Assembly (NCBI GenBank): GCA_964420395.1
Contig: CAYQTJ010000004.1
Location: 2,506 to 66,505 of the forward strand
Length of the DNA stretch: 64,000 nt
Origin: an uncultured Fibrobacteraceae bacterium
GTDB taxonomy: Bacteria; Krumholzibacteriota; Krumholzibacteriia; LZORAL124-64-63
Reading direction: 5' to 3'
Below are positions 10,182 through 39,413 of this stretch, piece by piece (within the stretch, counting starts at the first letter, position 1; every line of letters starts with the position of its first letter). The notes beneath the pieces were generated by a model. That model was not told where the DNA came from and ran no database searches. It worked only from the letters and a program-made list of their open reading frames with translations. The translations under genes were made by a program, and so were the position numbers.

Positions 10182-10294
10182 CCGCGGGAATGGCCGGTCC
10201 GGCGGACGGTCGGGGCCGTCCGTCCGCGGCCGACCGGGGGTGATCGGCCGGTCGTGCCGCGCCGCCACGGCGCGGGTGCGGAAAGGACGGGGTC

Positions 10295-21700: not shown

Positions 21701-23562
21701 ACCTCTACGGGTATCACGTCTACCGGTCGCTGCAGCCGAATTACGGCTACGTGCGGCTCACCGCGGAACCGGTCACGGGCGGGAGCTTCTACCGCGACAC
21801 CGGACTCGCCGCGCTCACCCGGTACTACTATCAGATCGCCGCCGCCGACTCGTCGCGGCTGCTGAGCCGCGTCACCTCGACGCTCGGCGTCAGCACGGTG
21901 CCGTCGGAGCAGACCGGCTTCCCGATCGAGCTGCCCGCGGAGACGTCGAGCCATCCGGTCGTCGGAGACGTCAACGGCGACGGCCGGCTCGACGTGGTGC
22001 TGCCGGCCAATTACATCTACGTGTGGGACGCGGATGGGGTGGAACTGCGGAACGGCGACGGCGACAGCCAGACGCTCGGCCCCTTCAACTCCACGGCCGC
22101 CGACTGGGCGCCGGCCGGTGCCACGCTGGCCAACCTGACCAGCCGTCCGGGGCTGGAGATCATCGCCTCGAATCGCACCGCGCGGCAGATCTTCGTCTAC
22201 CAGGGGGACGGCACGGTGGCCGCGGGCTGGCCGCGCACGATGAGCGACTGGAACTGGGCGACGCCGGTGGCGGGGGATCTCGACGGGGACGGCGACCTGG
22301 AGGTCATCGCGAACACCGTCACGGGGACGCTCTACGTCTGGCACCACGACGGCACGGACTTCTTCGACGGCGACGCCAACCCCGCCACGGTCGGGGTGTT
22401 CCAGGTGCGCGTCAACGAGTGGTACAGCTTCTGCTCGCCGGCGCTCGCCGACCTCGACCAGGACGGGAAGCTGGAGATCATCCTCGGCACCCGCTACAGC
22501 GGCACGACGCCGGACGTGCTGATGGCGCTGCGCAACGACGGCACGAACCTGCCCGGCTTCCCGGTCAGCTTCGGCCTCTACGGCGAGACGCTCTGCAGCC
22601 CGGCCGTGGGCGATCTCGACCTGGACGGGCGGCTGGAGATCGTGGTGGTCACCGAGAACGATCGCCTGCAGGTCATCCGGCACACCGGGCTGTCGATGGC
22701 GCCGTTCCCGATCCTCTTCGTCTCCAACAACAACCCCGACGGGCTGAGCACCCCGTCGCCGGCGCTCGCCGACCTCGACGGCGACGGCTATCCGGAGATC
22801 GTGGCGGTGTCGGTCACCGACGCGCTGACCGCCGCGGTGCACGCGGTCAGGCGGACCGGCGTCAACCTGTCCGGCTGGCCGCGGGCGGTGGGGGGGAATT
22901 CGGAATCGTCGCCGGTGGTGGCGGACATCAGCGGCGACGGGCATCCGGACGTCCTGTTCGGCATCGGCGGCGGGGCCGACAGCAGCCCCAACGCGCTCTA
23001 CGCGTGGCGCCACGACGGCGGCGTGGTGCCGGGATTCCCGCTGCAGCTCAGCGGGCCGATCCGCCCGACCCCCTGCCTGACGGACCTGAACCAGGACGGG
23101 GACATCGACCTCGTCTACGGCGGCTGGGACCTGCAGATGCACGTCTGGGACCTGCCGGCGGCCTGGAATCCCGACCTGGCGTTCTGGCCCACCTTCAAGG
23201 GCAATCCGCTGCGCAGCGGCCTGGCCGGCCAGCTGTGGATCACCGCCGTGCCCGGGGGGGAGGACGGCGCCCCGCCGGCGGCGGTCGCGCTCGAGGGGAA
23301 TCGGCCCAACCCGTTCAATCCGCGCACGCGGATCACCTTCGCCCTGCCCGGCCCCGGCGCGGTCCGGGCCCGGCTGACCATCTACGACCTGCGGGGGCGG
23401 CGCGTGGCGCAGCTGGTGGACGGCTCCCTGCGGCCCGGGCGCCACACCGTCGACTGGTACGGGCGCGACGACGGGGGCGGGGCGGTCGCCAGCGGGGTCT
23501 ATCTCTGCCGGCTGACGGCCGGCGGGGTGGTGACGGAGCGCAAGATGACCCTGGTGCGGTGA
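18754..23562 (+). CDS. Giant secreted multidomain protein. Domain order is signal peptide, C25 gingipain-like cysteine peptidase, Ig/CARDB-like domains, FN3, an FG-GAP/VCBS beta-propeller of about 8 blades, and a T9SS-type C-terminal sorting domain.
   Basis: Signal peptide MRLRPALLALFLWVMPALT. C25 motifs LLGGDTQIVPTR, catalytic His in NHIGHGFF and catalytic Cys in LNSLNCSSSAFD. Repeated GDxxGDGxxExxxx FG-GAP units. C-terminus NPFNPRTRITFALP...LTIYDLRGRRVAQL...GVYLCRL...RKMTLVR matches the T9SS CTD. Confidence 0.8.
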   Translation: MRLRPALLALFLWVMPALTITLCSSPREACGAVSGSGAQLRQEVTFPLSRSGWPVAGEVGAALLTDEPGDPRVPYHDVVLLLPPGRRVAEARFAPRDPSERELPAAVVTAAPARVSAGGEVAWDRLPADGPAYPPAWGELLGETVWHGYRLAHVRLYPWQLTRGGTGTWDGARAAAGMTIELALAPVADGGGRRRPAPEPDAALRARLRGLVANPDAVAAYPLPGVAAARDGAGFSPTWAPSLLGDDVAYVIITSAALAAEFQRLADYKTARGVPTVVRTIEAIVAAAPAGIDLPAQIRAYCAEAYRDWGTTAVLLGGDTQIVPTRRILNTLYPAGEGTEMPVDLYFACLDGDWNADHDEKLGEAYMNPYDSGDWADLAAELAVGRAPVATAAEAAVFVDKVMAYEGGTVAAPAGRALFLSEVLFPSAWTVGTPITDDGATYSEAIINEVMAESPMPPAATRMYEATALWPGSVPERRLAVIDSLNTGHFGLVNHIGHGFFYNLSVGDATLDLKDAAGVHNDPSYFILNSLNCSSSAFDYNSILERLVLNPGGGAVATIGSARAAFPTTASQYQREFYAALFRDGIREVGAAVAACRLPFQGLTAGNTPERWTHMTLTLLGDPTLAVWTAPPVPLVVSAPDTLPLGGQEVVVKVTRGGLAVAGAMVCLLKTGECYARGYTDAGGEARLPVVVKSAGAVALSVTAADSRPATRTLPVSVAPSPYLKVTSVQFRDDGTLGSVGNGDGLPDAGETVALLPTFTNSGTVLATGAVSMSAWTLTPGATLLSTATAVPPLAPGASAVGGSPLLLRLEAGVPDGTLFTVQLAAIDGGRVYLDEISERGRAPDLRPTIMTWSDSPGGDGDGVIEPDEEIVLRVTLLNPGGGRASGLTATVEPGIGLTVVDGSGAWPDIAPGGEATPSDAVSVRPASPVSAARGTLVVQDAFGHEWRQRFDLTPPERPTGVTGTSPAGGECLLLWTPNPEADLYGYHVYRSLQPNYGYVRLTAEPVTGGSFYRDTGLAALTRYYYQIAAADSSRLLSRVTSTLGVSTVPSEQTGFPIELPAETSSHPVVGDVNGDGRLDVVLPANYIYVWDADGVELRNGDGDSQTLGPFNSTAADWAPAGATLANLTSRPGLEIIASNRTARQIFVYQGDGTVAAGWPRTMSDWNWATPVAGDLDGDGDLEVIANTVTGTLYVWHHDGTDFFDGDANPATVGVFQVRVNEWYSFCSPALADLDQDGKLEIILGTRYSGTTPDVLMALRNDGTNLPGFPVSFGLYGETLCSPAVGDLDLDGRLEIVVVTENDRLQVIRHTGLSMAPFPILFVSNNNPDGLSTPSPALADLDGDGYPEIVAVSVTDALTAAVHAVRRTGVNLSGWPRAVGGNSESSPVVADISGDGHPDVLFGIGGGADSSPNALYAWRHDGGVVPGFPLQLSGPIRPTPCLTDLNQDGDIDLVYGGWDLQMHVWDLPAAWNPDLAFWPTFKGNPLRSGLAGQLWITAVPGGEDGAPPAAVALEGNRPNPFNPRTRITFALPGPGAVRARLTIYDLRGRRVAQLVDGSLRPGRHTVDWYGRDDGGGAVASGVYLCRLTAGGVVTERKMTLVR

Positions 23563-23609: not shown

Positions 23610-23853
23610 GGACGAAGTCACACCGGAGTGGGGCGCCGTCGGCGCCGCCGCTCCGCTACCACCTCCCGGAGGGCTGGACGACCGCACCTGGGTAACGGGC
23701 AGCAGTGGCGGGCCGGCAGGGCCGGCCCCGCATTGGCAGCAGCGTTCACAGTCCCCCGAGGAGGCATCCGTTTCCTCACGCAGAAGTCGATGAAGACACG
23801 TGCTTCTCGCGGCTCCGGCCGCGAGTTACGTCGCTATTGACCGGAGGGTATGC

Positions 23854-26800
23854 ATGGATCGCCATCGCCTGATGAGCCGCATCAGCCTGACCGTCGCGAC
23901 GGCCGCGGCGCTGACCTGGGGGACCGTGGCCCTCGGCGCCGGGGCCCCCGCCGCCTTCTTCGAGGGGAGGATCACCGGCGAGCTCTCGTGGGAAACGAAC
24001 GCCTCCGGGGCGGTGACGCCCCGCCTCGCCGGCGGTCGGGCCTGGGCCGAGACGGATCGGCCCGCGCTGGCGGTGCTCGACCTGCGCCTGCTGGTGCCGC
24101 TGGAGGCGGCGCCGGGCGGCGTCGAGGTGGTGCCCCTGGCGACGCACCGCGTGCGGGTGCCGGGGCGGCTGGCCGTCGGTTCGCCGCTCATCAGCAGCGA
24201 CGGGGTCGCCGTGGTCGCGGCCCGGCTCCCTCTGGACGGGGCGGTCTTTCCGGCGCAGTGGGGCGAATTCGGCGGCACGCAGGTCTGGCGGGGCTTCCGT
24301 CTCGCGTCGGTGCGGGTCTACCCGCTGCGGGCCGTGCGTGACGCGGCGGGCGAGTGGAGCGAACTCGAGGTGCTCGACAGCTACGCCATCCGGTTCCTGC
24401 CGGGCGGCGGCAAGCTCGCGGCGGGGGACGCCGCGGAGATCGCCGTGCGCGAACGTCGGGTGCCGGGCGAGCGGGCGCGCGCCGAGGCGGCGCTGGCCGG
24501 CCTGATCGCGAACCCCGGAGGGCTGTCCGGCTACGCGCGCGCCGACGGTGCGGTCGTGGCGGAGCCGGCGGGGGGCTTCGCGCCGAGCCAGACCCCCAGC
24601 CTGGAGGGGAGCCCGGTCCGTTACCTGATCATCACCCGGGAGGCGCTGGCCCCGGCCTTCCAGCGCCTGGCCGATCATCGCACCGCCCTGGGGGACCCTG
24701 CGGTCGTGCAGACGGTGGAGTGGATCGAGGCCAACTACCGCCACGGCGCGGATGTCCAGGAGACGATCCGGCTCTTCATCCGCGAGGCCTATCAGCGCTG
24801 GGGTGTGGAGTACGTCCTGCTCGGCGGCGACACCGACGTGGTCCCGGCCCGCTACATCCACAGCGAGTACTATCCCCCCTCGTCCAGCACCGACGTGCCG
24901 ACCGACCTCTATTTCGGGTGCCTGGACGGGAACTGGAACGCCGATGCCGACGATCTCTTCGGCGAGCACTACGCCAGCTATCTGAATCCCGGCGACAACG
25001 CCGATCTCGCCGACGAGGTGCGGGTGGGGCGCGCCCCGGTCAGCACCGTGAACGCGGTGAACGCGTTCATCGACAAGGTCATCGGCTACGAGCAGCAGGT
25101 GGCGGGGACGGGCTGGCCCAACCGGATGCTGTTCGCCGCGGAGGTGCTGTTCCCGGCCGACTACACCGCGGGGGCGACGATCACCCTCGACGGCGCGAGC
25201 TTCGCCGAGCAGTTGAACAACACCGCGCTCACCCCCTGCACCGGGATGACGCCGACGCGGCTTTACGAGTCGTATCCGCTCTGGCCCGGCTCGACGCGCC
25301 TCTCGCGCGCGGCGTTCACGGACTCCGTCAATACCGGTCACTTCGGCATCGTGAACCAGATCGGTCACGGCTTCTTCGTCAACATGTCGCTGGGCGACGC
25401 CAATTTCACCGTCGCCGACGCCGACGGATTGCACAACACGGGGCGCCCGTTCCTGCTCTATGCCCTCAACTGCGCCTCCGCGGCGTTCGACTACGCCTGT
25501 CTGATGGAGCGCTTCGTGCAGAATCCCAACGGCGGCGCGGTCGCGGCGATCGGCGCGGCCCGGGCCGCGTTCCCGTATACGGCGAACGACTATCAGATTG
25601 AGTTCTTCCGGCTGCTGTTCTGCAACGGCATCCACCGGCTGGGCGACCTGATGAGCCTCAGCCGCCTCCCGCAGCTGGCAGACACCTACTACAACACGGC
25701 CGACCGCTGGACCTTCCTGAACTACACGCTGCTCGGCGACCCCGGCCTGGCGGTGTGGACCGGTGCTCCGCGGCCGGCGAGCGTGGCGGCTCCCGCCTCC
25801 CTCACGGCCGGCGCCCAGTCGGTGACGGTGACCGTGACGGCCGACGGCCTGCCGGTCGAGGGGGCGCTCGTCTGCCTGAGCAAGGAGGGCGACGACTACG
25901 CCTCGGACTTCACGGATGCCGCGGGCCAGGTCTCCCTCGCCTACACCCCGGTCAGCGCCGGCGCGGCCAGCCTGGTCGTAAGCGGAGCGGGGCTGGCCCG
26001 CGAGGCGCGCGATCTGCCGGTGACGGTCCCCGGCGCGTACATCGCGCTCGACGCGGTGACGATCACCGATGACGGCTCCGCCGGCAGCAGCGGCAACGGG
26101 GACGGGCGCTTCGACGCCGGCGAGACGGTGGCGGTGGTCACCCAGTATCGCGACACCGGCACGGGGGGGGCGCTGAACTGCCTCGCCACTCTCAGCGGGG
26201 GGGCGGCCGGCCTGACCATCCTGGACGGCACGGCCAGCGTCGGCAACGTGCCGTCGGGCAGCGTCAAGGCGGCCACGGAGCCGTTCCTGGTGCGTGCCGA
26301 CGCCGCCCTGCCCGACGGTCTGCACGTGGCGTTCTCGGTCACGGTGACCGCGCAGGCCGGGGGGCCGTTCGCCAGCGAGTGGAATCCGGTCGTGCTGGCG
26401 CCGGAGCTGGCGCCGATCGCGCTGACCTGGTCGGACCTGGTCTACGGCAACGGGGACGGCGTGCAGCAGAACGGCGAGCGGATCACCGTGGCGGTGAAGC
26501 TCAAGAACTACGGCGACGGGCTGGCCGGGGCGATCACCGGGCGGCTGCGCAGCATGGACCCGGGCGTGGTCCTGCGCGACACCGTCGCGTCCTACGGCAC
26601 GCTGGCGCTGCTGCAGGAAGGGACCGGATCGGTGCCGTTCTCGCTGTCGGAGACGGACGTCAGCGTCGACCACCCCTGCTGGATCCTCTTCAGCGATCCG
26701 CAGGGGCGCACGGTGCGGCACGACTTCGTACTGAACGCGCCGGCGGCGCCGGCGGCGCCGGCGACCAGCGGCACGCTCGGGCCCGACGTCATCGGCCTGA

Positions 26801-28725
26801 CCTGGGCGCCGGTGACGACCCCGCACCTGCGCGGCTACCACGTCTACCGCGGCACCAGCGCCGGCGGTCCGTTCGTGCGGGCGAACGCCGACCTGGTCGA
26901 GCGCACGTCCTACTTCCGCGACTCCGGTCTCGCCCTGCTGACCCAGTACTTCTACCGGATCGCGGCGGTGGACTCCTCGCTGGTGGAGGGGCCGTTCTCG
27001 GCCGTGGTCTCGCAGAGCACCGCACCGCCGGAAATGGGCGGCTTCCCGCTGCCCATGACTAAGGAGACGAGCGGCCACAACGCCGTCGGCGACGTGGACG
27101 GCGACGGCACGCTCGAGGTCGTGCTCGGGGCGGACGAGGTCTACGTCTGGACCGCCGGCGGTGGCGAGCTGCGCGACGGTGACAACGACGCCCAGACGCT
27201 CGGGCCGTTCACGAACATGTCCAGCGGCACCACGAATCTGAGCTTCTCGCCGTCCGGCATCACCCTGGCCGATCTGGACGACGTACCGGGGCTCGAGATC
27301 ATCGCCAGCGAGAGGGTCCAGAACAAGATCCACATCTTCCGCCGGGACGGCAGCGAACTGCCGGGCTGGCCGCGGTCCCTGGTCGGCACGAGCTGGAACT
27401 GGACCACGCCCGCGGTCGGCGACGTGGACGGCGACGGCGCCCCGGAGATCGTCTGCAACGACATCGCCGGCCGCACCTTCGCCTGGCACCTCGACGGCAC
27501 GGAACTGAGGGACGGCGACAGCAATCCCGCCACGCTCGGCGTGTTCGTGGCGCGCGCCGGCGCGACCTACGAGTATGGCTTCAGCTCGCCCGCGCTGTGC
27601 GACCTGGACGGTGACGGGCGCAAGGAGATCATCTTCGGCTCGAAGCTCTCCGGCGTGCCCAACTACCTCTACGCCTATCGCTACGACGGCAGCCAGGCGA
27701 CCGGCTTCCCGTTCGCGACCGGCAACCTCGGCGCCATCGGGTGCAGCCCCAGCCTTGGAGACCTCGACAACGACGGTCAGCGGGAGATCGTCTTCGTGTC
27801 GGAAGCCGACTCGCTCTATGTCCTGCGGCGGAACGGCAGCCGCTATCCCGGCTTCCCGATCTGGTTCACCGCCAACAGCACCAGCAGCGGCGCCTCCTGT
27901 CCCAGCCCGGCGCTGGCCGACTTCGACGGCGACGGGCGGCTGGAGATCGCGGCGGTGACGGTCACGAACGCCGCGAGCGCGGCCCTGCGGCTGATCGACA
28001 CCGACGTCGCGGGCGGCACCTCCGGCCAGACCATGCCGGGCTGGCCGAAGAGCCTGCCGGGCAACTCGGAGTCCAGTCCCCTGGCGGGGGACATCGACGG
28101 CGACGGCGGCATCGACATCGTGTTCGGGATCGGCGGGGGCGACGAATCGACCCCCAACAACATCTACGCCTTCGAGGCGAGCGGCGCCGCGGTGCCTGGC
28201 TTCCCGATCACCGTCGGGGGGCCGATCCGGCCCTGCCCCGTGCTGTGCGACCTCGACGGGGACGGCAAAGTCAACATCGTCTATGGCGGATGGGACCTGC
28301 AGGTCCACGTCTGGAACCTGCCGTTCGCCTACGATCCGGATCTGATGCCGTGGCCCACCTTCCGCGGCAGCCACTGGCGCGACGGCGTCTACCGGCAGCC
28401 CACCCTGACCGGTGCGCCGGGGGAGGCGCCTCCGGCGGCGCTGGCCGTGGCGCCGAACTTCCCGAACCCGTTCAATCCCGTCACGACGGTGCGGCTCAAC
28501 GTGCCGGGCCCGTCCGGGCAGAGCGTGCCGCTCGGCCTGCGGGTGTACGACCTGCAGGGGCGGCTGGTGCGCGTCCTGCACGCCGGCCCGGCCGCGACCG
28601 GCTGGCGGACCTGGATCTGGGACGGTCGCGACGGCGCCGGGCAGCCGCAGGCGAGCGGCGTGTACCTGCTCCGGGCCGAAGCGGGCGGGCAGGTGCGGAC
28701 GCAAAAGATGGCCCTGGTGAAATGA
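23854..28725 (+). CDS. Giant secreted multidomain protein, paralog of 18754-23562. Same architecture: C25 gingipain-like peptidase, Ig/CARDB, FN3, FG-GAP beta-propeller and T9SS CTD.
   Basis: VLLGGDTDVVPARYIHS. NQIGHGFF (His). LNCASAAFD (Cys). FG-GAP repeats GDVDGDGTLEVVLG, GDVDGDGAPEIVCN, CDLDGDGRKEIIFG, GDLDNDGQREIVFV, ADFDGDGRLEIAAV, GDIDGDGGIDIVFG and CDLDGDGKVNIVYG. CTD is NPFNPVTTVRLNVP...LRVYDLQGRLVRVL...GVYLLRA...QKMALVK. Confidence 0.8.
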   Translation: MDRHRLMSRISLTVATAAALTWGTVALGAGAPAAFFEGRITGELSWETNASGAVTPRLAGGRAWAETDRPALAVLDLRLLVPLEAAPGGVEVVPLATHRVRVPGRLAVGSPLISSDGVAVVAARLPLDGAVFPAQWGEFGGTQVWRGFRLASVRVYPLRAVRDAAGEWSELEVLDSYAIRFLPGGGKLAAGDAAEIAVRERRVPGERARAEAALAGLIANPGGLSGYARADGAVVAEPAGGFAPSQTPSLEGSPVRYLIITREALAPAFQRLADHRTALGDPAVVQTVEWIEANYRHGADVQETIRLFIREAYQRWGVEYVLLGGDTDVVPARYIHSEYYPPSSSTDVPTDLYFGCLDGNWNADADDLFGEHYASYLNPGDNADLADEVRVGRAPVSTVNAVNAFIDKVIGYEQQVAGTGWPNRMLFAAEVLFPADYTAGATITLDGASFAEQLNNTALTPCTGMTPTRLYESYPLWPGSTRLSRAAFTDSVNTGHFGIVNQIGHGFFVNMSLGDANFTVADADGLHNTGRPFLLYALNCASAAFDYACLMERFVQNPNGGAVAAIGAARAAFPYTANDYQIEFFRLLFCNGIHRLGDLMSLSRLPQLADTYYNTADRWTFLNYTLLGDPGLAVWTGAPRPASVAAPASLTAGAQSVTVTVTADGLPVEGALVCLSKEGDDYASDFTDAAGQVSLAYTPVSAGAASLVVSGAGLAREARDLPVTVPGAYIALDAVTITDDGSAGSSGNGDGRFDAGETVAVVTQYRDTGTGGALNCLATLSGGAAGLTILDGTASVGNVPSGSVKAATEPFLVRADAALPDGLHVAFSVTVTAQAGGPFASEWNPVVLAPELAPIALTWSDLVYGNGDGVQQNGERITVAVKLKNYGDGLAGAITGRLRSMDPGVVLRDTVASYGTLALLQEGTGSVPFSLSETDVSVDHPCWILFSDPQGRTVRHDFVLNAPAAPAAPATSGTLGPDVIGLTWAPVTTPHLRGYHVYRGTSAGGPFVRANADLVERTSYFRDSGLALLTQYFYRIAAVDSSLVEGPFSAVVSQSTAPPEMGGFPLPMTKETSGHNAVGDVDGDGTLEVVLGADEVYVWTAGGGELRDGDNDAQTLGPFTNMSSGTTNLSFSPSGITLADLDDVPGLEIIASERVQNKIHIFRRDGSELPGWPRSLVGTSWNWTTPAVGDVDGDGAPEIVCNDIAGRTFAWHLDGTELRDGDSNPATLGVFVARAGATYEYGFSSPALCDLDGDGRKEIIFGSKLSGVPNYLYAYRYDGSQATGFPFATGNLGAIGCSPSLGDLDNDGQREIVFVSEADSLYVLRRNGSRYPGFPIWFTANSTSSGASCPSPALADFDGDGRLEIAAVTVTNAASAALRLIDTDVAGGTSGQTMPGWPKSLPGNSESSPLAGDIDGDGGIDIVFGIGGGDESTPNNIYAFEASGAAVPGFPITVGGPIRPCPVLCDLDGDGKVNIVYGGWDLQVHVWNLPFAYDPDLMPWPTFRGSHWRDGVYRQPTLTGAPGEAPPAALAVAPNFPNPFNPVTTVRLNVPGPSGQSVPLGLRVYDLQGRLVRVLHAGPAATGWRTWIWDGRDGAGQPQASGVYLLRAEAGGQVRTQKMALVK

Positions 28726-32685: not shown

Positions 32686-33618
32686 CCATCGCTGCTGGTG
32701 GTCGGCTACAACGCCTGGGATCTGCTGGCGCCGCTGCCGGCTCCCATCCCCCGCGACGCCAAGCTCGAAACGCCGGGCCTGACCATGGGGGGGGGAGGGC
32801 CGGCGGCCACCGCCGCGGTGGCGCTGGCGCGGCTCGGCGCGCGGGTCCGCCTGGTCACGCCGCTGGCGGACGATCTCGCGGGGCGGCTGCAGCGGCAGGA
32901 ACTGGTCTCCGCCGGGGTGGACCTGGCCCTCTCGCCGGCGCGTCCCGGCGGCGCCTCGCCCCTGGCCGTCAGCCTGATCGACGCCGACGGCTCGCGCGCG
33001 ATCCTCTGGCGCCGGGGCGATCTCGAACCGCTCGCGGCGTCGGAAGTCGCGGCGGACTGGCTGGACGGCACGGACGCGCTGCTGTGCGACAGCCACGAAC
33101 CGGTCGCCGCCGGGGCGCTGGCGCGGGCGGCGCGCGCCCGCGGCGTGCCGGTGGTGCTGGACGGTGGCAGCGTGCGCCCCGGGCTGGCCGAACTCGTGGC
33201 GCTGTGCGACGACGTGATCGGCTCCGCCGCCTTCGCGACGTCCCTGACCGGCGAGCCCGACCCGGGAGAGGCGCTGCGGGCGCTGGCTCGCCGCGGTCCC
33301 GGCCGCGTGGCCGCCACTTTCGGACCGGCCGGCTGCCTGCGGCTGGCCGACGGCCAACTGGCGCACCGGCCGGCCTTCGCCGTCCCGGTGGTCGATACGA
33401 CCGGTGCGGGCGATGCCTTCCACGCCGGCTACGCCTTCGCGCGCAGCCTCGGCCGCGACTTCGATGGCTGCCTCGCCTGGGGCGCCGCCGTGGCGGCGCT
33501 CGGCTGCCGCGCGCTCGGCGGCCGGGCGGGGCTTCCTGACCGGGCGGAGGCGGAGGCGCTGCTGCGGCACGGGCGGTTCCGGGCGGAGCGGCCGGTCTGG
33601 CGCGGGCGGCCCGACTGA
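32686..33618 (+). CDS. PfkB-family carbohydrate/nucleoside kinase (ribokinase-like).
   Basis: C-terminal signature DTTGAGDAFHAGYAFA. N-terminal GG dipeptide region. Confidence 0.7.
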   Translation, partial: PSLLVVGYNAWDLLAPLPAPIPRDAKLETPGLTMGGGGPAATAAVALARLGARVRLVTPLADDLAGRLQRQELVSAGVDLALSPARPGGASPLAVSLIDADGSRAILWRRGDLEPLAASEVAADWLDGTDALLCDSHEPVAAGALARAARARGVPVVLDGGSVRPGLAELVALCDDVIGSAAFATSLTGEPDPGEALRALARRGPGRVAATFGPAGCLRLADGQLAHRPAFAVPVVDTTGAGDAFHAGYAFARSLGRDFDGCLAWGAAVAALGCRALGGRAGLPDRAEAEALLRHGRFRAERPVWRGRPD

Positions 33619-33638
33619 GGCGCCGATCGGGGCTGGAC

Positions 33639-33660
33639 TTTCGTCTATGTTTCGCCTATC
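33639..33660 (+). promoter_or_regulatory. 11-bp tandem direct repeat TTTCGTCTATG / TTTCGCCTATC, about 60 bp upstream of lexA. Candidate operator.
   Basis: Read directly from the sequence. Its function is inferred from the position only. Confidence 0.2.
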
Positions 33661-33718
33661 ATGAGCTGCAGGGCGCGGCGAGCCGCCGCGCCGCAACGCG
33701 TCGACCGGAGGCCGGAGC

Positions 33719-34321
33719 ATGGGACTGACGCCGCGCCAGGCGGAGATCCTGACCTTCATCGAGGACTACACCCGCCGCCACGGCTACGCGCCGACGCTCG
33801 TGGAGATCGCGCAGCGCCTGTCGCTCTCGTCCGTGGCCACCGTGCACAAGCATGTCAGCCGGCTGGTGGAGCAGGGACGCCTGCGACACGGACGGCACGC
33901 GCGACGGGAGCTCGAGGTGGTGGCCCTCCCCGGCGTCCGCGCCGCCCGGACCGTGCCGCTGCTCGGCGCCGTGGCGGCGGGCCGTCCCATCGAGCCGCTG
34001 CCGGAGACGGAGCAGCTCGAACTTCCGGAGGGCTGGCTCGGCCGCGCCCGCACCTACGCGCTGCGCGTGCGGGGCGATTCGATGATCGAAGAGCAGATCC
34101 GCGACGGCGACGTCGTCATCGTCGAGGAGCGCGAAACCGCGCGCAACGGGGAGACGGTCATTGCGCTCGTGGACGGCGAAGGGGTCACGGTGAAGCGGTA
34201 CCGGCGCGACGGCGGCCTGATCCGACTCGAACCGGCCAACCACGAGCTCTCCCCGCTCGTGCTGCCGGAGGAGCGGGTGCGTGTGCAGGGCGTCGTCATC
34301 GGCGTGCTCAGGCGCCTCTAG
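33719..34321 (+). CDS. lexA: LexA repressor (SOS regulator, S24 peptidase).
   Basis: N-terminal wHTH LTPRQAEILTFIEDY...GYAPTLVEIA. Cleavage-site region AAG. C-terminal VRGDSMIEEQIRDGDVVIVE with the Ser/Lys dyad context. Confidence 0.85.
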   Translation: MGLTPRQAEILTFIEDYTRRHGYAPTLVEIAQRLSLSSVATVHKHVSRLVEQGRLRHGRHARRELEVVALPGVRAARTVPLLGAVAAGRPIEPLPETEQLELPEGWLGRARTYALRVRGDSMIEEQIRDGDVVIVEERETARNGETVIALVDGEGVTVKRYRRDGGLIRLEPANHELSPLVLPEERVRVQGVVIGVLRRL

Positions 34322-35354
34322 CGGCGGGGGGCGGGAGCGCCCGCCGCGCTGCCTGCTCCACCTGCGTCCCCGCGATCCCGCCTGGGGGCGCTCCGCGGTG
34401 GCGTTCCACTGCGACCGCTGGGCGCCCGCCTGGGAGGCGGCCGACGGCGGCGTCCACCTCGACCTGACCGGCACCGGCCGGCTGTACGGCCGTGGCGCGG
34501 ATGGCCCGGTGCGTCTCTGCCGCGAGGCGGTCCGCGTCTGGGGGCCGCTGGCGGCGGGCGCCGCCCCCTCGCGCCTGGCCGCCGCGCTCGCCTCGCGCTG
34601 CGTGGCGGGCGAGGCGGGCGCCGGCGCGCTCCTGTACCTCCCCCCGACCGGCGTGCCCGGCTTCCTCGCCCCCTATCCGCTGAGCGTGCTGGGCGTTCGC
34701 CATGCCGCAGCCGTGACCCTGCTGACGGGGCGGGGCGTGCGGACGCTGGGGGACCTGCAGGCACTGCCGCCGGCGCTGCTGGCCGGTCTGCTCGGAGCGG
34801 AGGGAGCCTGGATCGCCGCGACCGCGGCGGGGGACGACGCGGCGCCGCTGGGCCGGGAGCGCCCCGCCGGCCGGCCGGTGGTGGCGGTCCGTCTGGCGCG
34901 GCCGCTGACCGGCGGCGAGGGGACGACGGCGCTGCTGCAGGCGGTGGCGGCGCGCGCCCTGCTGGGCTCGCCCGAAGGACCGTCCGGGCGCGCGTCCTGG
35001 ACCCTGCGGGTGCGCCGGGACGGGGCCTGGGAGCAGAGCGCGCTGGCCGGGGCACCCCTGCCCGACACCCTCGCCGGCTGGCGACGACTGCTGTCGCTGC
35101 TGTGGCGTCGGCTGCCGTCGCGCCGCGCCGGCGTGACCGCGCTGACGCTGTTGCCGGGACCGCGGTGCGTGGCGCCGGGCGGGACACAGGGGGACTGCTT
35201 CGCTTCCGGCGCCGATGGCCGGCTCACCAGGGGGTGGCGCCGCGTCGGCGCACCGCGGGCGCTCCACCCGGCCGCCGAGGAGTCGCTGCGGCGGTGGGGC
35301 GCCGTCTGGGACGAGGGGGAGGGGCCGCGGGGCGGGGGTTCCCCGTCCGGTTAG
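34281..35354 (+). CDS. Short Y-family DNA polymerase-like protein (ImuB-like), probably non-catalytic.
   Basis: CLLHLRP... is like the ImuB N-terminus. LDLTGTGRLYG is the Y-family LDxTGs.rLFG motif. LPLSVLGV...LGVRTLGDLQALPPALLAGLLG is the thumb HhH region. The ORF is too short to hold a full palm. The start is uncertain and overlaps lexA by 41 nt if ATG 34281 is used. Confidence 0.45.
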   Translation: MCRASSSACSGASSGGGRERPPRCLLHLRPRDPAWGRSAVAFHCDRWAPAWEAADGGVHLDLTGTGRLYGRGADGPVRLCREAVRVWGPLAAGAAPSRLAAALASRCVAGEAGAGALLYLPPTGVPGFLAPYPLSVLGVRHAAAVTLLTGRGVRTLGDLQALPPALLAGLLGAEGAWIAATAAGDDAAPLGRERPAGRPVVAVRLARPLTGGEGTTALLQAVAARALLGSPEGPSGRASWTLRVRRDGAWEQSALAGAPLPDTLAGWRRLLSLLWRRLPSRRAGVTALTLLPGPRCVAPGGTQGDCFASGADGRLTRGWRRVGAPRALHPAAEESLRRWGAVWDEGEGPRGGGSPSG

Positions 35355-36352
35355 AAGAGCGTGGGTGCGGCATCGCCGCCACCGCGCCGGCCCGCCGCGC
35401 GGGGGGCGGCAGCCGGTAGGTCGGGAAACGGCCGGAGCTGCCGGGGATAGGCGGCGCGCAGCCCGGCCGGCACGGCGGGCGACAGGCCGCTCCAGAGCCG
35501 CTGCAACTGCAGCGCGTTCACCACGGCCTGTCCCCGGAAGTGGTTGTTCGCGATCACGTGGATCGCCGCGCCGGCCGGCAGGCGCGCGGCGGCCGCGCTC
35601 AACCGGGCCAGCAGGCCGCTCAACTCGGCGTCATCGTAGAGGTAGTCGTAGCGCGCATCGCGACCGGCGTCCGGGGCGAACCACGCGGCGCTGTTGCGGC
35701 CGTGCAGACGGACGTAGAGCGGTGCCGTCGCCCCGGGCGGTGGGGGCGGCCCTCCGAGCGCCGCCGCCAGGGCGTCGTCGGTCGACAGGTTGCCGCGCAG
35801 CGGCGGCTGGTCGCAGACGACGGGCCGGATGGGTGGCGAGGCGCCCCAGGCGGCGTGCCGCACCTCGATGGCGAGCGGCCAGCCGGCGTCGGCGGCGGCG
35901 CGCGCCAGTTCGGACAGCCGCTGCGCCCCGGCGGGCGAGGCGCGCAGCGACCAGGGGAACTGCAGCAACAGCGCCCCGAGGCGGCCGGCGTCGCGCGCCG
36001 GCCGGAAGGGGCCGGTCGCGTCGAGCAGGGCGTGCGGCGACGGCGGGGCACCGCCGTGGCTGAGTCGGCGGTGCAGCTTGAAGTTCCAGCGGAAGTCGGG
36101 ACGGCTCTCCACCCGGCGGCACCAGGACTCGACCTGGCGCGCCGACACGTCGCGGTAGAACGTGGCGTTGACCTCGACGGTGGCGAACAGCGTCGCCAGC
36201 AGGTCGAGCGGGTGGAAGCCGCGCGGACGTGGCCGGGGATAGACGATCCCCTCCCAGTCGGCATAGCTCCAGCCGGCGGGCCCGAAGCGGACCTCCGGTC
36301 CGGGCGCGGTCTTTCCCCCGGCCGGGCCGGGAGCCTCAGGCGCAACGTGCAT
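35351..36352 (-). CDS. DUF72 (UPF0759/YecE-like) family protein.
   Basis: FGPAGWSYADW...LATLFATVEVNATFY...LYVRLHGRN...IANNHFRGQAVVNA. Confidence 0.7.
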   Translation of the reverse strand: MHVAPEAPGPAGGKTAPGPEVRFGPAGWSYADWEGIVYPRPRPRGFHPLDLLATLFATVEVNATFYRDVSARQVESWCRRVESRPDFRWNFKLHRRLSHGGAPPSPHALLDATGPFRPARDAGRLGALLLQFPWSLRASPAGAQRLSELARAAADAGWPLAIEVRHAAWGASPPIRPVVCDQPPLRGNLSTDDALAAALGGPPPPPGATAPLYVRLHGRNSAAWFAPDAGRDARYDYLYDDAELSGLLARLSAAAARLPAGAAIHVIANNHFRGQAVVNALQLQRLWSGLSPAVPAGLRAAYPRQLRPFPDLPAAAPRAAGRRGGGDAAPTLF

Positions 36353-36441
36353 CGCGACCCCCGCCGCGCCCCGGGCGGGGGCGGCGCGCGATTGTAGGCC
36401 GGACGGGCCCGGCGGGCAATGCCGTGGCGGCGCGGTCGCGG

Positions 36442-36470
36442 TTGACGCTGTGCCCGCGCCCCGTTAACAT
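36442..36470 (+). promoter_or_regulatory. sigma70-like promoter TTGACG-N17-TAACAT upstream of the Hsp20-Lon pair.
   Basis: -35 at 36442-36447. -10 at 36465-36470. Confidence 0.35.
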
Positions 36471-36514
36471 CCGATCGGCAAATGTCTTGTCGCGGACCAG
36501 TCAGGGGGGACGCC

Positions 36515-36964
36515 ATGGTCGGCGAGCGCGCGGGCAATCCCGAGGGCCGGGGAGGGGCGGAGGATGTCTTCGAAATCCTCGTCACCTCGTTCTCCGGGCA
36601 GGAGGGGGGCCTGCCGGGGGAGGGGGACCTGTCGTGGCGTCCGGCCACCGACGCCTACGAGACCGCGGAGGCGTTCGTCGTGCAGATGGACCTGGCGGGG
36701 CTCGAGCCGCGCGGCATCGAGGTGGCGCTGGACGGCGACTGCCTCGTGGTACGGGGCGTGAGGCGGGACATCGCGCCGCCCGGCAAGAAGCACTATTCCA
36801 AGATGGAGATCAGCGTGGGACCGTTCGAGCGCCGCATCGTGGTGCCGATCGAGATCGATCCGCAGGGGGCGGTCGCGCGCTACCGCAACGGATTCCTGTT
36901 CGTGGAGCTGCGCAAGGGCAAGCGACGCACCTTCACGCGAAGGCGGATCGATGTCGACGCGTGA
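36515..36964 (+). CDS. Small heat-shock protein, Hsp20/alpha-crystallin family.
   Basis: ACD-domain pattern WRPATDAYETAEAFVVQMDLAGLEPRGIEVALDGDCLVVRG...GFLFVEL. Confidence 0.75.
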   Translation: MVGERAGNPEGRGGAEDVFEILVTSFSGQEGGLPGEGDLSWRPATDAYETAEAFVVQMDLAGLEPRGIEVALDGDCLVVRGVRRDIAPPGKKHYSKMEISVGPFERRIVVPIEIDPQGAVARYRNGFLFVELRKGKRRTFTRRRIDVDA

Positions 36965-37016
36965 GGGGGGTCGGCGGCCCCGCGGCCGCGCAGACGGGGA
37001 GAGGAGCGGGCGTGCG

Positions 37017-39413
37017 ATGAGCGGCGAAAAGACCAAAGGCGGCTCGGGCGGGTCGGATGTGGCGGAGGCGCGGGTCCCCGACGTGCTGCCGATCCTGCCG
37101 ATCAGCGAGGCCGTCATCTTCCCGTACATGATGGTCCCGCTGGTCCTGAGCGACCGCAAGCTGATCCAGCTCGCCGACGACTGCCTGGCGGGCGACAAGA
37201 TGCTCGGCGCGTTCGCGCAGCGACCCACCCCGGATGACGAAGAGGAGAAGGAGACGGCCGGCGCCGAGGAGGAACTGATCTACACCGTCGGCACGGCGGT
37301 CAAGCTGCAGAAGATGCTGCGCTTCCCGGACGGCAGCATGCGGCTGCTCGGGCAGGGGGTGGCGCGGGTGCAGCTGAGGGGGCTGACGTCGCGCCGGCCG
37401 TACCTGAAGGGCCGCGTGTCGGTCGTCGAGGAGGATGACAGCCGTGACTCGCGGACGCTGGCCTACATGCGCGGCGTGGCGAACAACTTCATGAAGATCG
37501 TCGACGCCAGCGAGAACCTGTCGGAGGAGCTGAAGGTCGTCGTCATGAACATCGACGACCCCGGCCGCCTCGCCGACCTGATCGCCACCAACCTCGACAT
37601 CGAGATCGGCGAGAAGCAGCAGGTGCTCGAGGAGCCGAGCCCGCGCAAGCGGCTCCAGCTGTTGACGAAGATCGTCATGCGCGAGCTGGAGGTCGTGGAG
37701 CTCGGGCGCAAGCTCCAGCTGCGCGTGCGCAAGTCGATCGACAAGGACCAGCGCGAGTACTACCTGCGGCAGCAGTTGAAGGCGATCCAGCGCGAGCTGG
37801 GCGACACGGACGAGGCGTCCGTGGAGATGGACGAGCTGAAGGAGCGGATCGCCGCGGCCGACCTGCCGGAGACGACGCGGGCCGCCGTCGAGCGGGAGTA
37901 CGACCGGCTGGCGCGCATGTCGCCCGGGGCGAGCGAGTACACAGTCAGCAAGACCTACGTGGACTGGCTGCTCGACCTGCCGTGGCACGTGGCCTCGGAG
38001 GACAAGCTCGACCTGCGCCGCGCCGAACGGCTGCTCGAGCGGGACCACTACGGACTGGCGGACGTCAAGGAGCGGATCCTCGAGTTTCTCGCCGTGCGCA
38101 AGCTCAAGGCCGACAACCGCGGCCCGATCCTCTGCCTCGTCGGCCCTCCCGGCGTGGGCAAGACGTCGCTGGGACGCAGCGTGGCGGAGGCGGTGGGCCG
38201 CAAGTTCTTCCGCTTCTCCCTGGGCGGCATGCGCGACGAAGCGGAGATCCGCGGGCACCGCCGCACCTACGTCGGCGCGATGCCGGGGCGGATCATCGCC
38301 GGGCTGAAGGAGTGCGGCACCAACAACCCGCTCATCATGCTCGACGAGATCGACAAGCTCGGCCAGGACTTCCGCGGGGACCCGGCCAGCGCGCTGCTGG
38401 AGGTGCTCGACCCGGAGCAGAACTGGTCCTTCACCGACCACTACCTGGCGCTGCCGTTCGACCTGTCGAAGGTCCTCTTCATCACGACGGCGAACGTTCT
38501 CGACTCGATCCCGCGCCCCCTGCTCGACCGCATGGAGATCATCAGTCTCGCCGGGTACACCAACCTCGAGAAGCTGGAGATCGCGCGGCGCTACCTGGTG
38601 CCGCGGCAGATCGAGTCGAACGGGCTCTCCGGGGGGTTGATCCGCTTCTCGGACGCCGCCGTGCAGCAGATCATCGCCGAGCACACGCGGGAGGCGGGGG
38701 TGCGCGAGCTGGAGCGGCGCATCGGCGCGGTGTGCCGGAAGGTGGCTCGCGACGTGGCCCGGGGAAAGCGCGGACAGCGCCGCATCACCGCCGCGAACCT
38801 CAACGACTATCTCGGCTCGCCCCCGTACGCCGACGACCGTCTGCGCAGCCGGGCGCGGGTGGGCGTGGCGACGGGGCTCGCCTGGACCGCCGTGGGCGGA
38901 AAGATCCTCTACCTCGAGGGGGTGCTGCTGCCCAACGGGAGCGGCACGATGAAGCTGACCGGACAGCTCGGCAGCGTGATGCAGGAGTCGGCCAGCGCCG
39001 CCTTCTCCTACCTGCGCAGCCGGTTCGGGGAGCGGCCGGAGCATCGCGAGTTCTTCCGCGCCCACGACCTGCACATCCACATCCCGGCGGGCGCCACCCC
39101 GAAGGACGGGCCGAGCGCGGGCATCGCGCTGGCTTCGGTGATGCTGTCGCTGCTGCTCGGCCGCCCGATCGACCGGCTGACGGCCATGACCGGGGAGATC
39201 ACGCTCACCGGCGACGTGCTGCCGATCGGCGGCCTCAAGGAGAAGGTGCTGGCCGCGCACCGGGCGGGCGTGCGGCGAATCATCCTGCCGGCGGCGAACG
39301 AGCCCGACCTGGACGACATCCCGAAGGAGGCGGCGCGCGAGATCCGCTTCGTTCCGGTGAAGCACATCGATGCGGTCTGGCGGGAGATCTTCCCGCGGCT
39401 GCGGCTGGACTGA
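37017..39413 (+). CDS. lon: ATP-dependent Lon protease (La).
   Basis: LON N-domain [20 protein letters not shown]. Walker [16 protein letters not shown]. Protease-domain catalytic Ser in [14 protein letters not shown]. Confidence 0.9.

What the first reader, a model, noticed from the sequence alone, without database searches (positions are those of the whole stretch)
33719..35354. lexA followed by a truncated ImuB-like Y-family polymerase homolog, with no imuA or dnaE2 nearby
Directly downstream of lexA, and possibly overlapping it, is a 357-aa ORF. It carries the Y-family LDLTGTGRLYG motif and the thumb/HhH region (LPLSVLGV...LGVRTLGDL). It is too short to contain the full palm with the catalytic acidic residues. 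The canonical SOS mutagenesis cassette is lexA-imuA-imuB-dnaE2. Here only LexA and a minimal ImuB-like scaffold are present, and the next gene is a DUF72 on the opposite strand. Possible explanations are a degenerate cassette, a cassette split across the genome, or a non-catalytic adaptor acting with a distant error-prone polymerase.
Basis: partly seen in the sequence, partly recalled or inferred. Interest (0 to 1): 0.5.

Follow-up and report, generated by a model that had tools for sequence, protein, structure and literature searches.

The report
Fingerless dead Y-polymerase beside lexA
Immediately after the SOS repressor gene lexA, and served by the same damage-responsive promoter, lies a gene for a shrunken, catalytically dead relative of the DinB/ImuB lesion-bypass polymerases; it is conserved across the candidate phylum Krumholzibacteriota and probably works as a sliding-clamp-binding adaptor, not as an enzyme.

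Summary
lexA (33719-34321) is followed by a 357-aa ORF (34281-35354) that overlaps it by 41 nt. No other promoter-like site lies between them.

The ORF is a real, conserved gene, not a frameshifted or truncated polymerase. At least 31 protein clusters (50% identity) of 320-394 aa share its architecture. All those that could be placed are Krumholzibacteriota-like and sit downstream of lexA.

It also lacks the ImuB-C domain. No imuA, dnaE2 or recA lies in the 64-kb window or within ±10 kb of seven orthologous loci. Profile comparison puts it nearer to DinB-core and inactive PolY proteins than to the one lineage of canonical ImuB tested.

The lexA promoter carries a TTTCG-N6-TTTCG direct repeat. 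In other phyla the same repeat precedes dnaE2 and imuA-imuB, so it is probably the LexA box.

Best reading: an SOS-induced, non-catalytic Y-family scaffold. This is a new variant of a known kind, of moderate interest.

The parts
33634..33662 (+). Sigma-70-like promoter of the lexA-X operon (TGGACT, 17 nt, TATCAT)
   Evidence: Promoter scan: 9 of 12 matches, with 0 expected in shuffles. It is the only + strand site upstream of lexA-X, and none lies between lexA and X. The same architecture is conserved upstream of lexA in L001, L003, L005, L008-L011 and L083.
33639..33654 (+). Direct repeat TTTCG-N6-TTTCG (TTTCGTCTATGTTTCG), lying between and overlapping the -35 and -10 hexamers. It is the candidate LexA operator (SOS box).
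   Evidence: It is the only exact match in the 64-kb window. In family loci it occurs only upstream of lexA. The same repeat sits directly upstream of dnaE2 (L027, L061, L073), of a DnaE2-like gene (L018) and of imuA-imuB (L030) in other phyla. LexA binding itself is inferred, not shown.
33719..34321 (+). lexA (200 aa): winged-helix DNA-binding domain plus S24 autopeptidase domain
   Evidence: TIGR00498 E 9e-50, 169 bits (cut-off 111); PF01726 and PF00717. dN/dS is 0.05-0.08 against close orthologues.
34281..35354 (+). Gene X: a 357-aa catalytically inactive, fingers-less Y-family polymerase homologue. It starts at a GTG and overlaps lexA by 41 nt.
   Evidence: GC3 is 0.916 and dN/dS is 0.33-0.36.
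34281..34346 (+). N-terminal leader (aa 1-22). It is read from the lexA overlap and the short spacer, is predicted to be disordered, and is absent from orthologues whose gene starts after the lexA stop.
   Evidence: pLDDT is below 50 for residues 1-18. Alignment A1 shows that P0005, P0007 and P0009-P0014 begin just before the ILHLRP strand.
34347..34670 (+). Palm remnant (aa 23-130). It comprises strand 'LLHLRP' (equivalent to the DinB 'HVDMD' strand), a short linker in place of the fingers, and the 'GGVHLDLTGTGRLYG' strand and loop.
34671..34829 (+). Thumb / helix-hairpin-helix domain (aa 131-183)
   Evidence: PF21999 IMS_HHH_1 is matched by 23 of 33 family members, best E 7e-6. This is the best-conserved stretch in the alignment to Pol IV. 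AF2 places helices at 134-182 with pLDDT 84-94.
34881..35159 (+). Little-finger domain (aa 201-293), with beta-alpha-beta-beta-alpha-beta topology
35187..35201 (+). QGDCF: a QxxLF-type beta-clamp-binding motif in a disordered linker
   Evidence: Q in 33 of 33 members, L in 28 of 33 (C in this protein), F in 33 of 33. pLDDT is below 50 at 298-309. It aligns with the QxxLF of DinB, iPolY and ImuB. Clamp binding is inferred.
35211..35246 (+). Tail helix (aa 311-322, RLTRGWRRVG) at the position of the RecA-NT-like motif of other Y-family tails
   Evidence: hhalign of tails alone: E 7.5e-5 (62% probability) against DinB tails and 3e-4 (39%) against inactive-PolY tails. The aromatic-Gly signature is not kept, and there is no signal against the RecA N-terminus itself. 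Inconclusive.
35268..35312 (+). Family-specific C-terminal motif A-[SA]-E-x-L-L-x-x-W-G-x-x-W (aa 330-344)
   Evidence: L336 and W343 are in 33 of 33 members, G340 and E333 in 29 of 33, and W339 in 27 of 33. AF2 gives helix 331-337 and strand 342-344. There is no counterpart in the DinB, iPolY or ImuB tails aligned. Partner unknown.

Best explanation
lexA and gene X form a two-gene operon. It is driven by one promoter whose spacer carries a TTTCG-N6-TTTCG direct repeat, the probable LexA operator. X is therefore repressed by LexA and induced by DNA damage, and it is translationally coupled to lexA.

X is a Y-family DNA polymerase homologue that has lost the fingers domain and the metal-binding carboxylates, so it cannot synthesise DNA. 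It keeps the palm core, the thumb, the little finger and an invariant QxxLF motif in a flexible linker. It also has a conserved C-terminal tail.

The most likely mechanism is that of ImuB and other inactive PolYs:
- after SOS induction, X docks on the beta sliding clamp at a stalled primer terminus through QxxLF, with thumb and little finger on the DNA;
- it then uses its tail, and possibly its thumb, to recruit or regulate another protein. That partner could be an error-prone polymerase encoded elsewhere (DnaE2-type or another), RecA, or both.

Shown here: operon anatomy, fold, loss of the catalytic residues and fingers, motif conservation, purifying selection, and lineage-wide conservation.

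Inferred: LexA binding to the repeat, clamp binding, and the identity of any partner.
For: Operon:
- The only promoter-like site is at 33634-33662, and none lies between the genes.
- The genes overlap by 41 nt here and in L001, L008 and L009. The gaps are 13-15 nt in L003 and L005.

SOS box:
- The repeat is unique in the window and conserved upstream of lexA in all family loci.
- In other phyla it lies upstream of dnaE2 and of imuA-imuB.

Y-family fold:
- Pol IV profile, E 4e-12.
- AF2 model, mean pLDDT 77.

Dead and fingerless. The alignments begin at template position 82-88.

A real gene:
- 31 clusters at E below 1e-30 with lengths of 320-394 aa.
- dN/dS of 0.33-0.36.
- No alternative-frame remnants.

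Clamp motif: invariant Q and F in a disordered loop.

Precedent: inactive PolYs carrying QxxLF and RecA-NT motifs act as hubs in ImuA-ImuB-DnaE2 and in predicted DnaE2B-iPolY-RecA complexes. The ImuB thumb is modelled to contact DnaE2, and strongly reduced ImuBs still keep the thumb and little finger (PMC6511836, PMC12926913). Operons combining lexA with a PolY gene are known, for example in Geobacter (PMC6511836).
Against: - No partner polymerase, imuA, recA or ImuB-C is encoded in the 64-kb window or within ±10 kb of seven orthologous loci.
- The ImuB-C domain, modelled as the main DnaE2 contact in ImuB, is absent.
- The RecA-NT-like motif is degenerate.
- In this protein the clamp motif reads QGDCF, with C in place of L.
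- dN/dS is four to seven times higher than for lexA, so constraint is relaxed.
- One relative (L176) has lexA followed directly by hsp20-lon with no X, so X is dispensable in at least one lineage.
- The whole neighbourhood is syntenic across the family. Conserved adjacency to lexA is therefore not independent evidence of a functional link.
Confidence: 0.55

Rival explanations
1. X is a stand-alone brake or regulator and recruits no polymerase. After SOS induction it occupies the beta clamp and the primer terminus, or the end of the RecA filament. That slows replication or blocks access of other polymerases, and may modulate LexA cleavage.
For: - No partner gene is linked in any of eight loci.
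- Only the clamp motif and the DNA-binding domains are clearly retained.
- ImuB-C is absent.
- Tight translational coupling to lexA suggests a stoichiometric relationship with the repressor.
- From general knowledge: excess E. coli Pol IV displaces Pol III from the clamp and slows forks.
Against: - The conserved, family-specific C-terminal motif implies a specific protein partner beyond the clamp.
- Every characterised or predicted inactive bacterial PolY is assigned to a multi-subunit polymerase complex (PMC6511836, PMC12926913).
- Nothing here tests the idea directly.
Confidence: 0.22
2. X is a bona fide but strongly reduced ImuB of a split mutagenesis cassette. On this view imuA (or RecA) and dnaE2, and perhaps a stand-alone ImuB-C, are encoded elsewhere in the genome under the same SOS box.
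For: - The NJ tree groups X with ImuB in 74% of bootstraps.
- The N-terminal strand 'LHLRP' resembles the non-catalytic ImuB N-terminus.
- Reduced ImuBs and split iPolY + ImuB-C systems are described (PMC12926913).
- The same SOS box precedes separate dnaE2 and imuA-imuB units in other phyla. Split, co-regulated cassettes therefore exist.
Against: - hhalign favours DinB-core and 395-aa inactive PolYs (E 1e-30 and 5e-31) over ImuB (2e-17). The ImuB profile was thin, however, and came from a single lineage.
- X is 21-23% identical to every group, so the tree is prone to long-branch attraction.
- According to PMC12926913, even the most reduced ImuBs retain ImuB-C, which X lacks.
- Relatives carry lexA followed by a catalytic dinB (L083, L087). 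That suggests an in-situ origin from dinB.
Confidence: 0.15
3. X is a decaying dinB relic, or an assembly or frameshift artefact, with no function.
For: - dN/dS is relaxed relative to lexA.
- The catalytic residues and fingers are lost.
- The window protein has no Pfam hit.
- X is absent from one relative.
Against: - An intact ORF of constant length is found in at least 31 clusters from many independent assemblies.
- 19 columns are invariant across 33 members, including Q303, F307, L336 and W343.
- dN/dS is clearly below 1.
- The AF2 domains are confident.
- No fingers-coding remnant exists in any frame.
Confidence: 0.04

Closest known systems
[quoted passage not shown]
   Same: - Y-family fold without catalytic carboxylates.
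- A QxxLF-type clamp motif after the little finger.
- SOS (LexA) control.
- Thumb and little finger retained even in reduced forms.
   Different: - X has no ImuB-C beta-barrel domain.
- X has no imuA or dnaE2 linkage.
- The fingers are deleted.
- The RecA-NT-like motif is degenerate.
- The profile similarity (E 2e-17) is weaker than to DinB-core.
Inactive PolYs (iPolY) of the predicted DnaE2B-iPolY-RecA or DnaE2X-iPolY-ImuB-C-RecA modules, such as the scDinB2-like and gbDinB2-like groups (PMC6511836, PMC12926913). Also the roughly 395-aa dead PolYs found here (P0063, P0065, P0067-P0069, Gemmatimonadales L012 and L031).
   Same: - DinB-length tail without ImuB-C.
- Dead active site.
- QxxLF motif.
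- This is the best profile-profile match (E 5e-31).
- One of them (L012) lies 1.5 kb from a DnaE2 gene.
   Different: - Those proteins keep a full fingers domain and a clear aromatic-Gly RecA-NT motif.
- X has an internal deletion of about 60 aa and its own C-terminal W-G-x-x-W motif.
- X is fused into the lexA operon with no polymerase gene nearby.
DinB / DNA polymerase IV (PolY-core)
   Same: - The same overall length apart from the fingers.
- The same LDLTGTxRLxG motif, thumb, little finger, QxxLF and tail layout.
- hhalign E 1e-30.
- lexA-dinB operons exist in relatives (L083, L087).
   Different: - None of the DMDAFF and S-I-D-E catalytic signatures is intact.
- The fingers are absent.
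- The NCBIfam Pol IV score is 22 bits against a cut-off of 367.
Geobacter sulfurreducens lexA-imuB-C-polY operon (described in PMC6511836)
   Same: A Y-family gene co-transcribed with lexA and induced by damage.
   Different: The Geobacter PolY is predicted to be active and is accompanied by a stand-alone ImuB-C. Here the PolY is dead and no ImuB-C is present.

Membership tests
Y-family DNA polymerase superfamily (fold level) | Palm core, thumb (HhH) and little-finger domains in that order | tested here: met
Y-family DNA polymerase superfamily (active enzyme) | Three metal-binding carboxylates (the E. coli Pol IV D8, D103 and E104 equivalents) | tested here: not met
   The first Asp is Arg in 23 of 27 members. 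The second Asp of the DMD motif, which is conserved in all DinBs aligned here, is never Asp. The Glu is Gly in 26 of 27. Only the D103 column is acidic, and only in 15 of 27.
Y-family DNA polymerase superfamily (active enzyme) | Fingers domain between the first palm strand and the rest of the palm | tested here: not met
   27-38 residues in X against 90-95 in DinB, iPolY and ImuB. The hhalign alignments start at template position 82-88. No remnant in other frames.
ImuB | Catalytically inactive Y-family core | tested here: met
ImuB | Beta-clamp-binding motif downstream of the little finger | tested here: met
   The motif is present and conserved: Q 33/33, L 28/33, F 33/33, in a low-pLDDT linker. 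Actual binding could not be tested.
ImuB | RecA-NT-like motif that binds ImuA or RecA | tested here: inconclusive
   A helix sits at the homologous position (hhalign of tails, E 7.5e-5 and 3e-4, probability 62% and 39%). The aromatic-Gly signature is lost, there is no signal to the RecA N-terminus, and no member hits DUF4113.
ImuB | C-terminal ImuB-C domain (beta-barrel of about 100 aa), retained even in the most reduced ImuBs according to PMC12926913 | tested here: not met
   The protein ends about 50 aa after QxxLF, with two helices and a short strand. The alignment to ImuB stops at position 364 of 495. No ImuB-C similarity in the window.
ImuB | Genomic association with imuA (or imuA') and dnaE2 | tested here: not met
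   None in the 64-kb window or within ±10 kb in L001, L003, L005 and L008-L011. Genome-wide co-occurrence cannot be tested with these tools.
DinB / Pol IV | Curated family score (NCBIfam Pol IV models; Pfam IMS and IMS_C) | tested here: not met
   Best NCBIfam score is 22 bits against a cut-off of 367. The window protein has no Pfam hit. IMS hits are weak and occur in 7 of 33 members; IMS_C in 0 of 33.
Inactive PolY (iPolY) of DnaE2-iPolY-RecA type modules | Dead PolY with QxxLF and without ImuB-C | tested here: met
Inactive PolY (iPolY) of DnaE2-iPolY-RecA type modules | Co-occurrence or co-localisation with DnaE2 (B or X group), plus a RecA-NT motif | not testable with these tools
   Only ±10 kb of each genome could be read, and no DnaE2 is there. 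The RecA-NT result is inconclusive.
LexA (upstream gene) | Winged-helix LexA DNA-binding domain plus S24 autopeptidase, above the equivalog cut-off | tested here: met
   TIGR00498 169 bits (cut-off 111); PF01726 and PF00717.
SOS regulon member | LexA operator in the promoter of the transcription unit | tested here: inconclusive
   A conserved TTTCG-N6-TTTCG repeat lies inside the promoter. The same repeat precedes dnaE2 and imuA-imuB elsewhere. LexA binding was not demonstrated.

The most novel reading that the evidence does not exclude
X is a self-sufficient pseudo-polymerase, coupled to LexA, that works without any dedicated error-prone polymerase. It would be a fingerless Y-family scaffold made in step with LexA. 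It would bind the beta clamp, and through its unique W-G-x-x-W tail either RecA* or LexA itself. Its role would be to brake replication or to tune SOS induction. If so, a polymerase fold has been converted into a checkpoint or regulatory protein.
Probability: 0.2. Interest if true: 0.6.

Novelty: new variant of a known kind. Interest (0 to 1): 0.4.

Why it matters
Catalytically dead Y-family proteins such as ImuB and the iPolYs are the least understood parts of bacterial mutasomes. No experimental structure of such a complex exists.

This family is a natural minimal version. It has a palm core, thumb, little finger, clamp motif and a short tail, with no fingers and no ImuB-C. It therefore marks out which parts a non-catalytic Y-family scaffold may need. 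It also offers a small, conserved target for structural and interaction studies.

It extends SOS-linked translesion machinery to the uncultured phylum Krumholzibacteriota.

The work also points to a direct-repeat operator, TTTCG-N6-TTTCG. This repeat appears upstream of lexA, dnaE2 and imuA-imuB in several phyla.

The finding remains a variation on a described theme, so its interest is moderate.

Tried and rejected
(1) Frameshift or sequencing error hiding a full polymerase. Rejected. tblastn with full-length DinB, iPolY and ImuB finds only the in-frame segment 34335-34814, with no fingers remnant. The length is also constant across assemblies.

(2) Metagenome scan for the promoter plus box (GGACTTTCG-N6-TTTCG), intended to recover other SOS promoters of the lineage. 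It returned 120 stretches, almost all chance matches with no SOS gene. Only L176 was a lexA promoter. The scan said nothing about dnaE2.

(3) Looking up the window protein's own contig. It is not on record.

(4) AFDB Foldseek, to look for other fingerless PolYs. That library was unavailable.

No signal. No recA gene is present in any held locus from which a profile could be built.

(6) NJ phylogeny to decide between a DinB and an ImuB origin. It did not settle the question. X is monophyletic (100%) but about 22% identical to every group, and X+ImuB gets 74% on long branches.

(7) A 1-mismatch box at 10766-10781 (-) lies inside a coding region, and the count is within chance expectation. It was dismissed.

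(8) The antisense ORFs overlapping X (for example 34308-35267 on the - strand) are artefacts of the 75-78% GC content. Only the + frame has homologues and GC3 of 0.92.
Full report
**1. What is in the sequence**

The window is about 75% GC, so ORFs appear in every frame. Coding frames were therefore judged by homology and by codon-position GC.

lexA occupies 33719-34321 on the + strand. It scores 169 bits on TIGR00498 (E 9e-50, cut-off 111) and carries LexA_DNA_bind and Peptidase_S24.

The 357-aa ORF at 34281-35354, called X here, is in a frame with GC3 of 0.916. Upstream of the first conserved residues, its only in-frame ATG/GTG/TTG start is the GTG at 34281, inside lexA. This gives a 41-nt overlap. 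A GGAGGAG run lies 7 nt upstream of that GTG.

The quoted motifs are present (HLDLTGTGRLYG; YPLSVLGV...GVRTLGDL). The next gene is DUF72 on the opposite strand at 35351-36352 (E 9e-37). It is followed by hsp20 and lon.

**2. X is a conserved gene family, not a broken polymerase**

A word-indexed search found 13 further proteins (14 counting the window's own) of 300-365 aa, 34-84% identical to X. None has a precomputed Pfam domain. One, a partial sequence of 300 aa, is labelled Candidatus Krumholzibacteriia.

An exhaustive profile search of 1.84 billion cluster representatives found 31 clusters with E at or below 1e-30. Full-length members are 320-394 aa. After those, scores drop sharply to Y-family proteins of about 390-415 aa at E 1e-27 and weaker.

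In GTDB genomes, the full-length members are on a Krumholzibacteriota MAG and three unclassified MAGs (L008-L011).

Close orthologues give dN/dS of 0.33-0.36 for X, against 0.05-0.08 for lexA. X is therefore under purifying selection, but a relaxed one.

tblastn with full-length DinB, inactive PolY and ImuB hits only the in-frame segment 34335-34814. Nothing resembling a fingers domain appears in any frame.

**3. Fold and anatomy**

- The family profile matches E. coli Pol IV structures at E 4e-12. Profile positions 34-186 align to Pol IV residues 90-242.
- An AlphaFold2 model built on the family alignment has a mean pLDDT of 77. Its elements are as follows:
  - residues 1-18 are disordered;
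  - a strand at 25-30 is followed by a helix and a beta-hairpin at 50-61;
  - further palm elements run to about residue 130;
  - a five-helix thumb spans 134-182;
  - a linker follows;
  - a beta-alpha-beta-beta-alpha-beta little finger spans 201-292;
  - a disordered loop spans 298-309;
  - two helices and a short strand close the chain.
- Foldseek against the PDB returns only Y-family polymerases at the top (E 1e-11 to 1e-8).

A 62-sequence alignment compared X with catalytic DinBs, inactive PolYs and ImuBs.

| Catalytic column (E. coli Pol IV numbering) | State in 27 X members |
|---|---|
| First Asp of DMDAFF (D8) | Arg in 23; never Asp |
| Second Asp of DMDAFF | Never Asp |
| D103 | Asp or Glu in 15 |
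| E104 | Gly in 26 |

The first-Asp column and the D103 column are 27-38 residues apart in X, against 90-95 in DinB, inactive PolYs and ImuB. All three profile-profile alignments begin at template position 82-88.

X is therefore not end-truncated. It has an internal deletion of about 60 residues that removes the fingers. It retains a palm core whose acidic residues are substituted.

**4. Retained linear motifs**

The disordered loop after the little finger carries QxxLF. Q is present in 33 of 33 members, L in 28 of 33 (Cys in the window protein, QGDCF), and F in 33 of 33. It aligns with the QxxLF of DinB, inactive PolYs and ImuB.

According to PMC12926913, almost all bacterial PolY groups have such clamp motifs, and most also carry a RecA-NT motif in the tail.

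The tail helix of X (aa 311-322) aligns to that motif in DinB tails (E 7.5e-5, probability 62%) and in inactive-PolY tails (E 3e-4, 39%). However, the aromatic-Gly signature is not kept. No member hits DUF4113, and the RecA N-terminus alone gives no signal. I score RecA-NT as inconclusive.

The last 15 structured residues form a family-specific motif, A-[SA]-E-x-L-L-x-x-W-G-x-x-W. L336 and W343 are invariant. I found no counterpart in the other groups.

**5. Regulation**

The only promoter-like site upstream of the pair is TGGACT-17-TATCAT at 33634-33662, with 0 expected in shuffles. None lies between lexA and X.

Inside this promoter is the direct repeat TTTCGTCTATGTTTCG (33639-33654). It is the only exact TTTCG-N6-TTTCG in the window.

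The same arrangement of -35, repeat and -10 is conserved upstream of lexA in every family locus. L005 has one mismatch, and L003, L010 and L011 carry a third repeat.

In unrelated loci fetched for other reasons, the same repeat lies directly upstream of other SOS mutagenesis genes:
- dnaE2 in L027, L061 and L073. The L061 ORF scores 1269 bits on the error-prone polymerase model (cut-off 939).
- a DnaE2-like gene in a Gemmatimonadota contig (L018).
- an imuA-like / imuB-like pair in L030.

Direct-repeat LexA boxes are known, for example GTTC-N7-GTTC in Alphaproteobacteria (PMC8565304).

I conclude that this repeat is very probably the LexA operator. lexA-X would then be an autoregulated, damage-inducible bicistronic operon. 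This step is inferred.

**6. Context and the missing cassette**

Orthologous loci share a long syntenic block: SBP_bac_5, two hypothetical genes, HIT (-), PfkB, lexA, X, then DUF72 (-) in some loci, then hsp20, lon and GT9 genes. Because the whole neighbourhood is conserved, adjacency alone is weak evidence for function. The overlap or 13-15-nt spacing between the two genes is more telling.

tblastn with two DnaE2s, an ImuA, two ImuB-C segments and RecA finds nothing in the 64-kb window or in seven family loci.

One relative (L176, LexA 67% identical) has PfkB-lexA followed directly by hsp20-lon, without X.

Two other organisms have lexA followed by a full-length catalytic dinB. These are L083, which has the same promoter and box, and L087, a Nitrospinota. 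This makes an in-situ origin of X from a lexA-linked dinB plausible, but it is unproven.

**7. Which family?**

| Comparison (hhalign, X profile against) | E-value |
|---|---|
| About 395-aa inactive PolYs that keep their fingers (P0063, P0065, P0067-P0069, Gemmatimonadales) | 4.5e-31 |
| Catalytic DinBs | 1.2e-30 |
| Canonical ImuBs (Myxococcota-type; thin profile) | 1.9e-17 |

One of the inactive PolYs (L012) lies 1.5 kb upstream of a DnaE2 gene.

A neighbour-joining tree recovers X as monophyletic (100%) and pairs it with ImuB in 74% of bootstraps. However, X is only 21-23% identical to every group, so long-branch attraction is likely.

ImuB's defining ImuB-C domain is absent. PMC12926913 reports that even the most reduced ImuBs retain it.

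I therefore do not file X as an ImuB. It is best described as a reduced inactive PolY (iPolY) of the DinB-core neighbourhood, one that may work like ImuB.

**8. Mechanism**

The literature assigns inactive PolYs to multi-subunit error-prone polymerases. The clamp motif tethers the complex. The RecA-NT motif binds RecA or ImuA. The thumb, together with ImuB-C, contacts DnaE2 (PMC6511836, PMC12926913, PMC11791113).

X keeps the clamp motif, thumb and little finger, and it has its own conserved tail. My best estimate (0.55) is that X is an SOS-induced scaffold that docks on the clamp at damaged primer termini. There it would recruit or regulate a partner encoded elsewhere.

A stand-alone brake or regulator (0.22) and a true split ImuB cassette (0.15) remain open. 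A functionless relic is very unlikely (0.04).

The decisive test is genome-wide co-occurrence of X with dnaE2 or other polymerases in Krumholzibacteriota MAGs. It could not be run, because only ±10 kb around each hit is readable. The one pattern scan aimed at other SOS promoters returned chance matches.

**9. Verdict**

The family is an undescribed, lineage-specific, fingerless variant of the known class of inactive Y-family polymerases. It is embedded in the lexA operon.

Novelty: new variant of a known kind. Interest: 0.4.

Noticed in passing
window 33639-33654; L027 7738-7753, L061 5209-5224, L066 5142-5157, L073 7295-7310, L035 7758-7773, L069 7700-7715, L030 8898-8913, L018 10117-10132: The direct repeat TTTCG-N6-TTTCG (often TTTCGYCTTATTTTCGCC) recurs in several phyla. 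It lies upstream of lexA in Krumholzibacteriota-like contigs. It lies upstream of dnaE2 and of imuA-imuB in Myxococcota/'delta' MAGs, and upstream of a DnaE2-like gene in a Gemmatimonadota contig. It looks like a LexA box shared across phyla and related to the alphaproteobacterial GTTC-N7-GTTC direct repeat. I did not find it described in the papers I read.
   Followed up: partly
L176 206-5065: A relative (LexA 67% identical, same promoter and box) has PfkB-lexA followed directly by hsp20 and lon. Only 225 nt separate lexA from hsp20 and there is no X gene. X is therefore absent from at least one lineage that shares the synteny.
   Followed up: partly
L083 1651-3487; L087 9041-10954: lexA is followed immediately by a full-length, catalytically intact dinB (DMDAFF and SIDEAYLD present). 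This occurs in an unclassified MAG that shares the promoter/box architecture, and in a Nitrospinota MAG. These may show the ancestral state of the lexA-X operon.
   Followed up: partly
L012 9815-15799; L031 9800-11020; L013, L026; P0016, P0063, P0065, P0067-P0069: A group of Y-family proteins of about 395-425 aa has a full fingers domain but dead active sites ('PPAFCTT' or 'IPSFE' in place of DMDAFF; 'GH' in place of DE). One is annotated by its source as 'DNA polymerase-4'. In L012 it lies 1.5 kb upstream of a 1065-aa DnaE2-type gene. In L031 it is flanked by an ABATE/CGNR regulator and a TPR protein instead.
   Followed up: partly
L055 and L081 (Bryobacteraceae / Acidobacteriia MAGs), Y-family ORFs around 9695-10948: Y-family proteins with a hybrid state. 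The first motif is largely kept (WDGDCFFASIEQ), but the D-E pair is replaced by G-A or G-S. They may be intermediates on the way to inactivation.
   Followed up: no
window 36482-36964 and 36951-39413; L003 7490-10376: hsp20 and lon follow the lexA-X unit in all relatives. In L003, which lacks DUF72, hsp20 starts only 62 nt after the X stop. Stress-protein genes and the SOS unit thus form one conserved cluster. Lon degrades SOS proteins in E. coli (general knowledge).
   Followed up: no
window 18631-23562 and 23800-28725: Two tandem paralogous ORFs of about 1640 aa, each carrying Peptidase_C25, FG-GAP repeats and a FlgD_ig domain (gingipain-like secreted proteases).
   Followed up: no
window 35351-35354: X and the convergent DUF72 gene overlap at their stop codons (TTAG: TAG on the + strand and TAA on the - strand). 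No intrinsic terminator-like hairpin was found in 33400-36600.
   Followed up: no
window 51926-54553: An 875-aa ORF matches Pfam PF13941, named 'MutL protein' (E 4e-120). Whether it has anything to do with DNA repair was not examined.
   Followed up: no
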